DNA of 64,000 nt from Mytilus californianus (Eukaryota). Shown here piece after piece: positions 12,001-18,000 of the stretch (position 1 is its first letter; each line of letters begins with the position of its first letter). The position numbers are program-made. The DNA is taken from contig NW_026262701.1 of assembly GCF_021869535.1 (NCBI RefSeq), forward strand, positions 21,576,001 through 21,640,000, written 5' to 3'.

Positions 12001-15000
12001 ATAATGAATCACCATTGATTTCAGTACTTTTAGTACATCAGGATTGGTTGCATTTCATAAAATATGTTGAATTTAAGGAGTCAGATACTAAATTTAATAT
12101 TCGCATTGCATAAAAATACAAATATTTCTTCTTTTATATCAGAAATAGTGCAATGCAATTGCTATCAGTCATTATAAATGCCTTTAGATAAGTAATTTTT
12201 AATAAAATGTGAATAAAGAAGGATAAATATGCATAAACTTTTGTTTTTGTTGAAATAGAATGCAATAATTCCTTTATTTGAATGGAAATTATTGACCGTC
12301 ATTGGATTTTTGTACTTTTTATAGCTTAGGATTGATTATTTTTTATCAAGTTAAAAGACTATCAGAAAAAATATACTATAATGTTGTTCTCGTTGTTTAA
12401 AATTACCAATATTTTTTTATTTTTAGGAGAATTTGCAGCATTTTTATTTGTCATTTGTTATTTTAATGGCTTCGAGATAAGTTTGTTTAAAGAATTTTAA
12501 GATTATAAGGATAAAATCCTTTAAAATATTTAAGAATAATACATCGACATTTGCAATAAAAGATCATTTCATTTTATTTTCAAGAGCATTTGCGGAAAAT
12601 AATAAAATCACTGAAAATCGCGATAAACACCGTTTTAGAGATGTCCGGGTTTGAAAAAAATTAAAACGAAAATGACCATTCTTTAATAGTAATATATAAA
12701 TTAAGTTTTATATGCATATTTCTTTTCTTTTTATATTCTTAAAACTGTGCTAAATAATTAAAAATGAAAAAAAATGTTGATCATTTGTACTTGAATGTTT
12801 CGTATTTTCCATCTCGCCATTTTAATTAAATGAAACGAAACTAAGATTTCGTAATTTGTATTAGTTTATCATGTGACGTAGTAGAGTTCAATCCGTCAGA
12901 AAGGTCGATCGGTCCTATCCGTCCGATCCGTCCGATCAGTCAAATACTTTTACTATAAGTCTGACGGATTGGTGACGTGAGTTTGACGCGAACTTGACTG
13001 ATCGGTGACTGATCGATGACCGCTGATTGATCGCTAAAACAGTAACGCCTAAGGTTGCAAGTACTGTATCACGATCTTGAAATATGGGAAATCACTATAA
13101 ATTTGTGAATAGAAAACCATGCTAAAGGTTGTTTTAAACAAATTAAAGGGGATTGGGGGACCCAACTTCATAACATACGAGTTATTAGTAACTCCATGAA
13201 TTATCAGTGTTAAAATTTCACCTTAACGTTTTGTTTTTTTTATTAAAGGAAAAGAATTAATGGTTCCATATTTATGTACCAGATCTAGAGCCAGTAAGTA
13301 TTCGAGAACGGAGACCTTTAAGTTAGACTGAATTGTTGATGTATAAGGCGATACGTTAGGCAATATGAAACAGATGGTGTTTAAAATATGCATAATACAA
13401 GAAAATCTGACACAAATAATCATGAAGCAAACACGTTTGTACCGGTATCAATTATGTTTGTTTTAATAAATTCATTCAGATGATGCAATGCTTTTAAACA
13501 AACATAAGACTCTAGTTCACAATAGACATGCGATTTCAGATTATATTATTAAATTGTGTTGTTAGTATCCGATTGTAACCTTAAAACAGTGCATTCAAGT
13601 GCAGAATAGATTAAGAATGGATACCTATTTATTTAAAAGCATTAGATTTTCATGTCTTTGGAAATTCAATGAAAAAAAACAAAATTTAAGTCGTTACTGA
13701 GGATGATCAGCAACAACAAAAAAATGTTAAAACACACATCTGAAGTATCAGAGTTTAAGCCTAGTATCTTTAATTAGTTGTTCCAACTAAAGTGATGTTA
13801 CAATATTTATCTTATGGATGGCCCGGTAAACGTTGTGTTTTATGTCTAAAGAAAGTGTATGCCTATTCTTTTAAAAGGCTCTGCTGAGCAAAATTTATGG
13901 TGTATATATGGCTAAGAATTGATTGACTCTGCTAGTAAAATCAGAATCTTCTTTTTTGAAGACTCAATTCTACTAAACTATAATCTTTGTAAGGAAATTG
14001 AAAAAAAATGTTTTATTTTGACTTCTTTAGGGTACTGCTATGTTTCGTTCTTCATTTGAATAGCCGGTGTAATTTGGATTTCTGTGTAGTAATTATTTGT
14101 TGTTCTATTTTTGGACTGTGTTTATAGCTGTATTCTTTTTCATATTTGTATTCAAATATAAAGAAGATCTACATCGTATTTCGAATAAAACCACCTATTC
14201 ATAGTCCCATTGCTTCTTATAGTATGCCTTTTTCAAGCATTTATAGCTATTTTTTCTGAAGTTCAAATAAAGTTGGAGTTATTTCATTGAAAAACTATTC
14301 CTTATCCTGATATGTGCTGAATATTCAACATACCTTCCATTAAAAATATTGTGTAAAACTGTTGCCGCGCATTTATATGTAAACCGTAAAATAAGTAAAA
14401 TACGAAAATATCAAGATATTTATGACGTCATGGTGACATCACAAATTACTGTTGTTCACTAAAGTAACAAGATTATATCAACCTGTTCATGTATCAATAA
14501 TATTCAGATTTTTCAAAGTTTGAGAGGATTTGCAAATATTTACATACCATTAACTAAACATTCGTGTTTTGCCAACTGCAAATCAATCGACCACAACAAT
14601 AACGATGGATTGATACATACAAAAAGTAATTAAGAGAAAACACAAATAAAGCTTTATTTATCTATCATTCATATCAATATTGATATCTTTCTTGTTTCAG
14701 TACTAATACAGATAGCCTTTGTTTCCCTAATATGAACTAATATCCTCCCCATGGACCGTTATTCCAGCCCTTATTCCAACCATAACGTCCGTGATATCCA
14801 TTGTATCCATTATAGCCATAGTAACCATTGTTGTATGGCCATGGTGTATTATATCCTGGATCATAACCCTGAAATGAAAAAAAACCATTAAATTTTGAAT
14901 TAATTATGATGTAGACATATAAAACAATTCAAAACCGATGCGTAACATCAGTTCATAAGATGAAGATATATTAACTATGTAGTCGATGATTTAAGTCCAA

Positions 15001-18000
15001 TCGAAAATAAGGAGACAAAATCATGGCAAAAAAAAACGTAAAAAGAAATAAAGAAAAACAACACTATACAAAACGCAACAGGGAATGAAGACTGACCAAC
15101 ACGAACCCCAACAAAAACCGTTGGGATCTCAAGTCCTCCTAAAGGGTAAGCAGACCCTGTTCCACATTTTGCATCCAACATGTTACTCATGAACGTACAT
15201 ACCCGGTGATAAATCGTTTTCAGTAGGTCACATTCGAGGAAAAGAGGACGGGATTATGGGTATGACAATTTGTACATATCTGTTGTCATCTGTGAACTAG
15301 ATATTCCATAACAGTCAACCAACTGGTGATGGCGTCCGTTAAAATTTAGAAGGAAGGGTTTCAAGTTCACTACTTGGAACTCTTTGTTAAATACCTCCAA
15401 GGAAATCATGATACGAAATGCAAGGTCTGGAATATCGTATCAACTAGGAGAATCATATCCATATACAGGCGCTAATTAAATGTTGCAACGAGAAATGGAA
15501 AGTTCACAATTAATATAAAAATCTGAAATCATCTCTTTTGTTGTTAAGTCTTTTTTTCAAACAATCCTCATTGTCAATTTTTATATGTAAGTCAAAATAT
15601 GAGGCCGACTTAATAATATTTACCAATTTTGCTGCACTAGAAGGGCATTTCGACAATAAATGTCTTTTCAGTGATGCTCGAATCCAAAATGTTTGAAAAT
15701 CAAAAAAAATTATTAAAAAAAATTAAGAGCTTACAAACTACAAAGGTCAACAAGTATAACCTTAACTGTATTTGTTGTATTCTTTATTTCAAGTCATTGG
15801 GATACATGTGTTCAACAAAGTCATCAAATTTTTAATTATTCAGTGTGAGGACATCATCTTTATAGCGAAAGTGAAGTTAAAGGATAATGCTATCTTCTTT
15901 TCATTCTTCCTAAGAACCTCTTGAATGCAGTCAGCTTCATATTAATAAAAGAGGAACATGTCAGCAAAAAGAGGCGTACAGTTGGTTCCACCAGAATATA
16001 TATACATTAAAGGCGATGCGGCTTATACGTCAATCAATGGCAACACCAACCAATGCGACATATAGTATTCAAAATACCTTTAACAGTTGACAAATTTGTA
16101 TATACAATCTGTACCTAATCAAATCGCAGCTAAGCAGTAATGAAAACTATCAAACAGGGACGTAAAAATGTATTATAACATTAGATTCAAAGAAGGACAT
16201 TACGATATACCTATTAATCGATGACGAGGATTCTGATCATGAATTTAAAAAAAAACATTTGAACATAAAACAAGGTTCAACATTTTTTAAGCACACAACA
16301 AAAAGGCCATTTATGAAAATTTGAAAAGGTTTGTTTCCAAATTGAGACATCTATCCAACATGACAGAAAGACAAGGATGTGAATGACCTATAGTCACCGT
16401 ACGGCATGCAACTCTAGTTTAGTCTTCTTTTTTTTTGTATATTTGAAAATATTTGAACATGAGTTATATACCCAATAATAGATAAGACTTTTATAGTTAA
16501 TTGATATATTATTAATAAGTTAATATGTTTATAACGTGAAGTTACCACTAACAACGTTTATTTTGAACAAATTATATCAACGTTACCTCCTTTGTTGCGA
16601 AGAGTAAATGTAACGTGATTTTACCACTAACAACGTTTATTTTGTAAGATTGTACATATGTTTACCATGAATATCTTCCGTGAGGAGTGAAACCGGTAGT
16701 AACAATGTGAACAATGTAGACTATAGTTTTTTCAATATTACACACTGAGGGCTTATTGGTTGAAGGTTGATACGTAGAGTGATATGGAAAAAACCATCTC
16801 ATTTGAAAAAATGTTTGCCGTTTATCTATGTCCCTAAATTAGATGTTTATCACGTATCAATAAGACTTTGTAACCGTGACTGAATCGTCAGGGATGTTTG
16901 ACGCCGAACGATTTTCATTCATTGTATTATAAATAACGTTGACTTGTATTAACTGTTAAGTTTATGATAAAACCAAATATCTTGATGCCATACCATAAAA
17001 AACTTCAAGTATTTTTAAACTTACATAACCTGCGTCTGAAAAAAAAAACGTTATCAATTATAATTAATCTTAATTTAGTCTTGAAAATAATATACTTGTA
17101 ATCATTGTCTGAAACTTTTATCTTTAAATAAAAAAAATATTTTTTATTATTTATGTGCCAGTAAATGATAATTTGTATAATTTATATATAAGAGTTATGG
17201 AAAACTATAAGAAGACAAACAATAGCAGAGCTATAATACATAACAAATTTTTTAACAACATCAAAATAATGACAAATAGTAAGGAAAAAATACTCACTTA
17301 AAGAAAACAAATTATAACTTTCTTCCTGTTTTCCCATCCCTTTGATGTTGTTGTAATTGCCAATTTTGGTAGGACATAAAGACTTAATTTAATTGTTTCA
17401 AGAGTTTGTTTGCTATTTTGAAAATGACGAAACCTATTCACAACGAAATTGATAGCTAGTATTTTTGCATGTAGCTAATGTCTCTATTTAAAAAATCCGA
17501 CATAACATATATATCAAGAGTTACGTACATACATATTGTTTGACAATTAATGAAAATATTAAAACAATTAAATATAATGAACCGCTTTAATAAGTCAAAC
17601 CTTTACTTACCACTCTGAACTGCAAATAATCCAATAAGGACTAAAGCCAGCAAAACTGTGACACTGAATTTATTCATTGCTACTAAATCAAGTTTTCTGC
17701 AGGGATAATCTGATTGCTGAGAAATACTCTTTATATACATTTCGCAATCAAACCACTGCAAATCAAGAGGAAAAAACAATCGAACACATGTTTCTATTAC
17801 AATAAGATTAAAATAAAAATAAAAATTTCAGTGTATTACATAATCCGTATTCCTTGTCATATTAGATGCAAGAAGAAAATAAAAAAATTAAAAATACCAA
17901 AAGAATTAATAATATGTTAACTCTATGATTCATTAAAGGAAAATCATTAAACTACTGTTGTAATAAAAAGTAAAATAAAAAAAAAAAAATGAACTCCAAG

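What the first reader, a model, noticed from the sequence alone, without database searches (positions are those of the whole stretch)
14737..17748. mfp-3 gene architecture: the signal-peptidase site is encoded by an 11-nt micro-exon
Seen: in copies 1 and 3, exon 1 ends mid-codon (AGT G), an 11-nt exon supplies D-A-G-Y and exon 3 starts in phase 0. The micro-exon carries the -2/-1 residues (DA) and the first two mature residues, and is the only frame adaptor, so skipping it gives a frameshift. Such genes are invisible to ORF finders and easily mis-annotated. Inference: micro-exon inclusion is a potential on/off or N-terminal-variant switch for a byssal adhesive. I do not know whether this structure has been published.
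Basis: partly seen in the sequence, partly recalled or inferred. Interest (0 to 1): 0.68.

Follow-up and report, generated by a model that had tools for sequence, protein, structure and literature searches.

The report
Mussel glue gene's 11-base exon
The window holds three tandem copies of a California-mussel adhesive gene (foot protein 3); two carry a real 11-base exon encoding the signal-peptide cleavage site, an ordinary feature already present in public gene models, with no sign that it is a switch.

Summary
On the minus strand, copy 1 has a 67-nt exon 1 ending in phase 1, an 11-nt exon (17035..17025) and a phase-0 exon 3 (14868..14737). All splice sites are canonical. Copy 3 is built the same way.

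The tiny exon is not a chance frame-fixer. The Mytilus californianus cDNA-derived protein "foot protein 3 variant 11" (P0001, 69 aa) consists of 22 exon-1 residues, then D-A-G-Y, then 43 exon-3 residues. A genome-derived M. californianus RefSeq protein (P0003) matches copy 3's exon 3 at 52 of 52 and also carries D-A-G-Y. Ten of 11 full-length family proteins have D-A at this spot.

So public models already contain the exon. No paper describing it turned up in 10 searches.

The "switch" idea has no support. Skipping stops translation two codons later, and no micro-exon-less product was seen. No RNA data could be examined.

The exon is also not strictly the only frame adaptor, because cryptic in-frame alternatives exist.

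Copy 2 has lost the exon in a roughly 2.6-kb deletion and is probably dead.

The warning about mis-annotation is borne out by three odd models in other Mytilus species. Interest is low.

The parts
17730..17737 (-). TATATAAA box of copy 1, 53 nt upstream of the ATG. The same motif is present in copy 2 (35718-35725) and copy 3 (58631-58638).
   Evidence: motif position only; promoter function is inferred
17611..17677 (-). Copy 1 exon 1, coding part: ATG, 22 codons of signal peptide ending V-Q-S, plus the first base (G) of the Asp codon. Donor is GTAAGT.
   Evidence: 21 of 22 residues identical to P0001 and 22 of 22 to P0003.
17036..17610 (-). Copy 1 intron 1, 575 nt, phase 1.
17025..17035 (-). 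Copy 1 11-nt micro-exon ACGCAGGTTAT. It completes the Asp codon and encodes Ala, Gly, Tyr. Acceptor is a T run plus CAG; donor is GTAAGT.
   Evidence: The four residues sit at positions 23-26 of P0001 and P0003.
14869..17024 (-). Copy 1 intron 2, 2156 nt, phase 0. It contains dispersed repeats with copies elsewhere in the window.
14737..14868 (-). Copy 1 exon 3, coding part: 43 Gly/Tyr/Asn/Trp-rich residues plus TAG. A 7-nt insertion (14742..14736) creates the early stop that gives the short C-terminus.
   Evidence: 41 of 43 identical to P0001.
14653..14658 (-). AATAAA polyadenylation signal of copy 1, about 80 nt after the stop.
   Evidence: motif only
58512..58578 (-). Copy 3 exon 1, coding part (67 nt, phase 1 end).
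58018..58028 (-). Copy 3 11-nt micro-exon ATGCAGGTTAT (D-A-G-Y; one synonymous change against copy 1).
55371..55529 (-). Copy 3 exon 3, coding part: 52 residues plus TAG. 52 of 52 identical to the M. californianus RefSeq protein P0003.
35572..35638 (-). Copy 2 exon 1, coding part (67 nt, phase 1 end).
35413..35571 (-). Copy 2's single 159-nt intron. It is what remains after about 2.6 kb, corresponding to 17497..14920 of copy 1, was lost together with the micro-exon. The junction lies at a short TATGTC microhomology.
   Evidence: 0 frame-restoring candidates inside it.
35254..35412 (-). Copy 2 exon 3: an open 52-codon phase-0 frame. It is out of frame when spliced straight to exon 1 (Gly, L-L-S-R-I, stop).

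Best explanation
The window is a tandem cluster of three foot protein 3 genes of the "slow" Gly/Tyr/Asn/Trp-rich type, most likely from Mytilus californianus.

Copies 1 and 3 are intact three-exon genes:
- Exon 1 gives the 5' UTR and the signal peptide up to position -3, and ends one base into the Asp codon (phase 1).
- An 11-nt exon, included constitutively, gives the rest of Asp(-2), Ala(-1) and the first two residues of the mature protein.
- Exon 3 gives the remaining 43 or 52 residues and the 3' UTR.

The tiny exon is probably recognised because both its signals are near-consensus: a run of about ten T followed by CAG upstream, and GTAAGT downstream. The upstream intron is also short (483-575 nt). 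It is most likely joined to a neighbouring exon first and spliced again from the enlarged exon.

Its coding role is fixed. The D-A end of the signal peptide is invariant in the family, while the two residues after it differ between paralogues. Variety in fp-3 proteins therefore comes from many gene copies and small indels, not from alternative use of this exon.

Copy 2 lost the micro-exon in a deletion and is most likely a pseudogene.

Shown: exon coordinates, phases, splice motifs, the match to cDNA-derived and genome-derived proteins, and the deletion in copy 2.
Inferred: constitutive inclusion, the order of splicing, cleavage after D-A, and the pseudogene status of copy 2.
For: - Structure and phases.
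- P0001 is cDNA-derived M. californianus foot protein 3 variant 11, 69 aa. That equals 22 + 4 + 43 residues, with D-A-G-Y at positions 23-26. Exon 1 of copy 1 matches at 21 of 22 and exon 3 at 41 of 43.
- P0003 is an M. californianus RefSeq protein held on a 122-Mb contig. It matches copy 3 exon 3 at 52 of 52 and exon 1 at 21 of 22, and carries D-A-G-Y.
- Ten of 11 full-length family proteins from M. californianus, M. coruscus and M. galloprovincialis plus one unnamed source have D-A after V-Q-S. The next two residues are GY in 6, GG in 2, AD in 1 and SD in 1.
- Exon boundaries are echoed in other species' models. P0002 begins at the Ala of the cassette, P0012 joins a foreign exon exactly before the Asp, and P0014 swaps exactly four residues.
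- The motif occurs only at the two predicted places, with 0.08 matches expected. It ranks top among 79 and 88 frame-restoring candidates.
- Skipping gives a stop after two codons.
- Copy 2: deletion, no candidate adaptor, stop after six codons on direct splicing, and no M. californianus protein closer than 86% in the database search.
Against: - No RNA reads or cDNA nucleotide sequence for this locus were seen. Support is through protein sequences that others derived from cDNA or gene models.
- The RefSeq exon table itself could not be inspected.
- Between copies 1 and 3 the micro-exon (10 of 11 identical) is no better conserved than its flanks: 5 substitutions in the 150 nt downstream and one T indel in the 28 nt upstream. 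Paralogue comparison therefore adds no evidence of selection.
- One of 11 full-length proteins (P0014, M. edulis) has E-L-N-K instead. That could be a real alternative cassette rather than a prediction error.
- Exon-3 translations alone do not reach any Pfam family.
- Cleavage after D-A rests on the -3/-1 rule, which the sites after V-Q-S and after F-A also satisfy. It also rests on my recollection of the N-terminus of purified M. edulis fp-3. No signal-peptide predictor was available.
Confidence: 0.85

Rival explanations
1. One reading: inclusion of the micro-exon is regulated. Skipping switches a copy off through a frameshift, or alternative use creates N-terminal variants of the adhesive.
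For: Skipping is indeed fatal to the frame. The stop would lie in the last exon, so the mRNA might escape decay (inference). Very short exons are often hard to splice (general knowledge). P0014 shows a different four-residue cassette at exactly this place.
Against: None of the 11 full-length family proteins lacks the cassette, and 10 of 11 have D-A. Both splice signals of the exon are near-consensus, which fits constitutive use. A switch that yields a 24-residue signal-peptide fragment has no obvious use. P0014 is a genome-derived model, and chance 11-nt frame-restorers are common (4 in copy 1's introns), so E-L-N-K may be a predictor's pick.
Confidence: 0.06
2. Cryptic in-frame routes are used. 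One is the nested AG inside the micro-exon, giving a 5-nt exon that reads G-Y and drops D-A. Another is the AG 13 nt inside exon 3, which bypasses the micro-exon, drops eight residues, and is the only way copy 2 could make a full product.
For: Both routes keep the frame. The AG inside exon 3 is present in all three copies. Copy 2 keeps its TATA box, ATG, donor, acceptor, an open 52-codon exon 3 and AATAAA.
Against: No database protein shows V-Q-S followed directly by G-Y-G-Y-D or by G-Y-N (0 of 11). The first AG after a strong pyrimidine tract is normally chosen (general knowledge). Copy 2's exon 3 frame in relatives is the phase-0 frame that needs the micro-exon (P0006 reads D-A-G-Y then D-Y-Y-P-G-Y-N).
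Confidence: 0.05
3. The 11-nt segment is a chance frame adaptor in these copies, and the D-A-G-Y of the known proteins is encoded differently, for example by other loci with a longer exon.
For: Dozens of frame-restoring segments exist by chance. Conservation between copies 1 and 3 is uninformative.
Against: The exact four residues with AG and GT around them are expected about 0.002 times in the gap. P0003 is genome-derived and identical to copy 3's exon 3. No other place in the window encodes D-A-G-Y with splice sites.
Confidence: 0.02

Closest known systems
Mytilus californianus foot protein 3 variant 11 (UniProt Q2Q9Z6, P0001), one of the "slow" Mfp-3S-type variants
   Same: Same species-level sequence. 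Exon 1 of copy 1 matches at 21 of 22 residues, the cassette D-A-G-Y is identical, exon 3 matches at 41 of 43, and the short C-terminus is the same. It matches Pfam PF04202.
   Different: There are three residue differences, so copy 1 is an allele or a close paralogue rather than the very gene that was cloned.
M. californianus RefSeq protein named "neuropeptide-like protein 30" (P0003)
   Same: Copy 3's exon 3 is 52 of 52 identical, and the cassette D-A-G-Y is present. The public gene model therefore already includes the micro-exon.
   Different: There is one difference in the signal peptide (Val for Ala in copy 3). The RefSeq name is misleading, since the protein carries PF04202 and is an fp-3. 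I could not see the exon table.
Micro-exons of animal genes (30 nt or less), constitutive or regulated
   Same: An 11-nt exon with canonical AG/GT, a strong pyrimidine tract and a consensus donor.
   Different: The best-known regulated micro-exons are multiples of three and neuron-specific (recalled). This one is not a multiple of three, so skipping cannot give a protein variant, only a truncation.
Schistosome micro-exon genes (MEGs)
   Same: A small secreted protein with a signal peptide on its own exon and a very short internal exon.
   Different: As I recall them, MEGs consist of many symmetric micro-exons whose combinatorial skipping makes variants. Here there is a single asymmetric micro-exon and no evidence of skipping.
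Phase-1 introns next to signal-peptide cleavage sites (a general pattern recalled from Tordai and Patthy 2004, not read here)
   Same: Exon 1 ends in phase 1, three residues before the presumed cleavage site.
   Different: A second, phase-0 intron follows only 11 nt later. This isolates the cleavage site on its own exon.

Membership tests
Foot protein 3 (Pfam PF04202, Mfp-3) | Significant match of the precursor to PF04202 | tested here: inconclusive
   The spliced model was not joined or scanned. Exon-3 translations alone gave 0 families. The near-identical public proteins P0001 (57.2 bits against a cut-off of 22) and P0003 (precomputed PF04202) do match.
Foot protein 3 (Pfam PF04202, Mfp-3) | Near-identity to a named fp-3 cDNA product | tested here: met
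   Against P0001, copy 1 exon 1 matches at 21 of 22 and exon 3 at 41 of 43. Against P0003, copy 3 exon 3 matches at 52 of 52.
Foot protein 3 (Pfam PF04202, Mfp-3) | Conserved core Y-G-W-N-K-G-W and a small Gly/Tyr/Asn/Trp-rich mature chain | tested here: met
   The core columns are invariant in 10 of 10 aligned family proteins and present in all three copies. In the exon 3 translations, G+Y+N make up 30 of 43, 35 of 52 and 35 of 52 residues.
Foot protein 3 (Pfam PF04202, Mfp-3) | N-terminal signal peptide ending V-Q-S-D-A | tested here: met
   Exon 1 plus the micro-exon give this in copies 1 and 3. Ten of 11 family proteins share it. Copy 2 lacks the D-A codons.
Foot protein 3 (Pfam PF04202, Mfp-3) | Made in the foot gland, Tyr converted to Dopa, located at the plaque-surface interface | not testable with these tools
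   No expression or protein-chemistry data are available here. Background comes from passages of PMC9999432 and PMC4275877.
Micro-exon (used exon of 30 nt or less) | Length of 30 nt or less with canonical splice sites | tested here: met
   11 nt, CAG acceptor after a T run, GTAAGT donor, in copies 1 and 3.
Micro-exon (used exon of 30 nt or less) | Present in mature transcripts | tested here: met
   Indirect evidence: the cDNA-derived protein P0001 and the genome-model proteins P0003, P0005 and P0007 contain the four encoded residues at the exact junction. No reads were seen.
Regulated (alternative) micro-exon | Isoforms with and without the exon | not testable with these tools
   No transcript data. 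0 of 11 full-length family proteins lack the cassette.
Schistosome-type micro-exon gene (MEG) | Most of the coding sequence built from several symmetric micro-exons | tested here: not met
   There is one micro-exon of 11 nt, which is not a multiple of 3. 43-52 of the 69-78 codons lie in one ordinary exon.

The most novel reading that the evidence does not exclude
The mussel uses the choice among in-frame options at this tiny exon to decide which of its many fp-3 paralogues yield secreted protein, or to vary the end of the signal peptide. The options are the full 11 nt, the nested 5 nt, a different 11-nt cassette such as the E-L-N-K of the M. edulis model P0014, or a bypass to the AG 13 nt inside exon 3, which is the only route open to copy 2.
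Probability: 0.06. Interest if true: 0.5.

Novelty: already known. Interest (0 to 1): 0.22.

Why it matters
The value is mainly practical. fp-3 genes are short and tandemly repeated, and their reading frame hangs on an 11-base exon. Ab initio predictors and spliced aligners can therefore truncate them (P0002), fuse neighbours (P0012) or pick a wrong adaptor (possibly P0014). Automatic naming can also hide them, as with "neuropeptide-like protein 30".

Anyone counting or comparing mussel adhesive genes should search for exon 1, the D-A cassette and exon 3 separately.

The locus also shows that fp-3 variety is written in the genome. The evidence is tandem paralogues, a 7-nt insertion that makes the short C-terminus of copy 1, and a deletion that kills copy 2. 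This fits the multigene explanation of fp-3 polymorphism. It opens no new biological question.

Tried and rejected
- Paralogue conservation as evidence for the exon. Rejected because the exon is no better conserved than its intron flanks and copies 1 and 3 are one duplication.
- Frame restoration as evidence. Rejected because 79 and 88 chance candidates exist.
- Searching exon 1 alone.
- Pfam on exon-3 translations: no hit.
- Cluster membership of P0001: the database was switched off.
- A looser D-A-x-x micro-exon pattern. It found one extra site at 24989 on the minus strand, reading D-A-S-C, with a poor pyrimidine tract and no fp-3 exons nearby. I took it as chance.
- Literature, 10 searches. 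None gave text on fp-3 exon-intron structure, and one search was wasted by a loose setting.
- Passages read: PMC9999432, PMC7971044, PMC7518861, PMC9168380 and PMC4275877. None describes the gene structure. PMC7971044 says only that fp-3 is multicopy and tandem in Perna viridis.
- Papers not held: Inoue et al. 1996, PMC1820661, PMC3587158, PMC2100433 and PMC3960351. Zhao et al. 2006 was never seen.
- Other large ORFs in the window gave only a Mutator-like transposase fragment.
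Full report
**What is there**

The finding lies on the minus strand. Copy 1 reads as follows:
- A TATATAAA box at 17737..17730.
- An ATG at 17677, then 22 codons of a hydrophobic signal peptide ending V-Q-S.
- One extra G, then a GTAAGT donor. The exon 1 coding part is 17677..17611, 67 nt.
- A 575-nt intron.
- A run of T, CAG, the 11 bases ACGCAGGTTAT (17035..17025), and GTAAGT again.
- A 2156-nt intron.
- A T-rich tract, CAG, and a 132-nt coding stretch (14868..14737) that starts in phase 0 and ends in TAG.
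- AATAAA at 14658..14653.

With the G carried over from exon 1, the 11 bases read Asp-Ala-Gly-Tyr.

Copy 3 (exon 1 58578..58512, micro-exon 58028..58018, exon 3 55529..55371) is built identically. Its micro-exon differs by one synonymous base.

**Is it more than chance?**

Frame repair alone is weak evidence.
- Between exons 1 and 3 I counted 79 (copy 1) and 88 (copy 3) stop-free AG..GT segments of up to 59 nt that would restore the frame.
- Of those, 27 and 28 are 17 nt or shorter, including four of exactly 11 nt in copy 1.
- Conservation between the copies does not help either. Copies 1 and 3 sit in one segmental duplication (6470-24730 against 50257-64000, 88-96% identical). The micro-exon (10 of 11 identical) is no better kept than its flanks.

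What does count is the content.
- The pattern AG + AYGCNGGNTAY + GT, with one mismatch allowed, occurs twice in the 64 kb on both strands, exactly at the two predicted places. The expectation is 0.08, and 1 of 100 shuffles reached two.
- Treated as one event in a 2.7-kb gap on one strand, this is about 0.002 (my arithmetic).
- By a crude score the segment is also the best candidate in both copies. In copy 1 it is the only one with at least 14 of 19 pyrimidines upstream and a 5-of-6 or better donor match.

**Evidence that the exon is used**

I searched the model exon by exon. The joined model was not assembled, searched, scanned or folded.

- The exon-3 translation of copy 1 found two proteins.
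- One of them, P0001, is "Foot protein 3 variant 11" of Mytilus californianus (UniProt Q2Q9Z6), 69 residues. That is exactly 22 + 4 + 43, with D-A-G-Y at positions 23-26. Exon 1 matches at 21 of 22 and exon 3 at 41 of 43.
- Searching with the public protein P0001 gave nine proteins.
- Among them is P0003, an M. californianus RefSeq protein held on a 122-Mb contig and named "neuropeptide-like protein 30". It is 52 of 52 identical to copy 3's exon 3 and 21 of 22 to its exon 1, and it carries D-A-G-Y.

A genome-derived protein can only have these residues if its gene model contains the tiny exon. The public annotation therefore already has it, although I could not see the exon table. The window is most likely M. 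californianus.

**Across the family**

Adding the representatives search (5 proteins at E of 0.001 or better; one of them, P0013, is an unrelated repeat protein that I dropped) and the copy-2 search (7 proteins) gave 11 full-length precursors.

- After V-Q-S, ten have D-A. The next two residues are GY in 6, GG in 2, AD in 1 and SD in 1.
- The exception is P0014, an M. edulis "uncharacterized protein". It has E-L-N-K in place of exactly these four residues.
- Two incomplete models mark the same boundaries. P0002 (M. galloprovincialis, "partial") begins at the Ala of the cassette. P0012 (unnamed) runs from the exon 3 of a slow-type gene straight into D-A-S-D plus a fast-type exon 3.

I read these three as annotation errors caused by the micro-exon. 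That reading is an inference. P0014 could be a true alternative cassette.

**Consequences of skipping, and other routes**

- Direct splicing of exon 1 to exon 3 gives Gly, Leu, stop in copy 1.
- The exon is not strictly the only adaptor. The micro-exon contains a second AG, and using it leaves a 5-nt exon that reads G-Y and drops only D-A.
- All three copies also have an AG 13 nt inside exon 3 that would restore the frame and drop eight residues.
- No database protein shows either product (0 of 11).

**Copy 2**

Copy 2 (exon 1 35638..35572, one 159-nt intron, exon 3 35412..35254) aligns to the first 113 nt of copy 1's intron 1 and the last 51 nt of its intron 2. About 2.6 kb, including the micro-exon, is missing. 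The junction lies at a TATGTC microhomology.

- No frame-restoring segment remains in the intron (0 candidates).
- Direct splicing stops after six codons.
- The phase-0 frame of its exon 3 is the one used in relatives that have the cassette, for example P0006. The loss is therefore derived.
- Copy 2 still has its TATA box, ATG, splice sites, an open 52-codon exon and AATAAA.

It is most likely a young pseudogene. It is, in effect, a natural knockout of the micro-exon.

**The signal-peptidase site**

Ser(-3) and Ala(-1) fit the -3/-1 rule, but so do the sites after V-Q-S and after F-A. No predictor was available.

As I recall from Papov et al. 1995 (not seen here), purified M. edulis fp-3 begins at the residue right after the D-A of precursors such as P0009. 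The invariance of D-A next to variable following residues fits that.

The title claim is therefore probable but not shown here.

**How it most likely works**

I take this to be a constitutive micro-exon. The reasons are two consensus signals (a T run plus CAG, and GTAAGT), a short upstream intron, and a length that is not a multiple of three, which rules out a useful skipped isoform.

The order of splicing is inferred from general knowledge of very short exons: the micro-exon is probably joined to a neighbouring exon first and then spliced again.

fp-3 variety is genomic. Copy 1 owes its short C-terminus to a 7-nt insertion (14742..14736) that brings TAG into frame. The old C-terminal codons survive out of frame in the 3' UTR.

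**Comparison and novelty**

- The proteins are known fp-3 "slow" variants. Passages of PMC9999432 and PMC4275877 give the background.
- The tandem multicopy state of fp-3 is noted for Perna viridis in PMC7971044 (passages).
- Micro-exons and phase-1 introns next to signal peptides are known kinds (recalled).
- The gene does not fit the schistosome micro-exon-gene type, because it has one asymmetric micro-exon only.
- Ten searches of the open library found no text on fp-3 exon-intron structure.
- Inoue et al. 1996 and Zhao et al. 2006 were not available, and supplements are closed. A printed description cannot be excluded.

**What stayed unchecked**

- Transcript reads.
- The RefSeq exon table.
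- fp-3 loci in other Mytilus assemblies.
- Cluster members of P0001.
- The cleavage site.

Noticed in passing
window 35254-35638 (-), intron 35413-35571: Copy 2 of the fp-3 gene has lost about 2.6 kb, including the micro-exon, at a TATGTC microhomology. Everything else (TATA box, ATG, splice sites, open exon 3, AATAAA) is intact. It is probably a young pseudogene.
   Followed up: yes
window 14736-14742 (-) and 14700-14736: A 7-nt insertion in copy 1, absent from copies 2 and 3, brings TAG into frame and gives the short C-terminus seen in cDNA variant 11. The former last codons (G-N-K-G-Y-L-Y, stop) survive out of frame in the 3' UTR.
   Followed up: yes
window 17025-17029 and 58018-58022 (-): A nested AG inside the micro-exon would give a 5-nt exon (G-Y) that also keeps the frame and drops only D-A. 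No product of this kind is seen in the databases.
   Followed up: partly
window 6470-24730 and 50257-64000: A segmental duplication of about 18 kb or more (88-96% identical, same orientation, period about 43.8 kb) carries copies 1 and 3. The unit around copy 2 is only 70-86% similar.
   Followed up: partly
window 10003-12414: An AT-rich tandem array with a 288-nt period, 8.4 copies and 67% matches. It is absent from the second duplication unit, to judge from the gap between the aligned blocks.
   Followed up: no
window 43607-44305 (+): An open frame of 232 codons matching the Pfam Mutator-like transposase family (PF20700, E 6.5e-31). It covers only part of the profile, so it is a transposon fragment.
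   Followed up: partly
window 55607-55879 (-), intron 2 of copy 3: A 273-nt stretch present in copy 3 and absent from copy 1, close to exon 3. Separately, a 58-nt indel ends 28 nt upstream of the micro-exon (present in copy 1, absent in copy 3). Intron 2 also holds a dispersed repeat (15000-15511) with copies at 25759-26293 and 19355-19510.
   Followed up: no
database proteins P0002, P0012, P0014, P0003 (not in the window): Odd public models of fp-3 genes. P0002 is truncated at the micro-exon (M. galloprovincialis). P0012 is a chimera of two neighbouring genes joined at the D-A cassette (unnamed source). P0014 has E-L-N-K in place of the cassette (M. edulis). The M. californianus RefSeq fp-3 carries the name "neuropeptide-like protein 30".
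   Followed up: partly
window 17025-17030 and 14863-14868 (-); the same in copy 3: The last six bases of the micro-exon and the first six of exon 3 are the same (GGTTAT), giving a G-Y-G-Y repeat across the junction. This could be a trace of how intron 2 arose, or just the Gly-Tyr bias of the protein.
   Followed up: no
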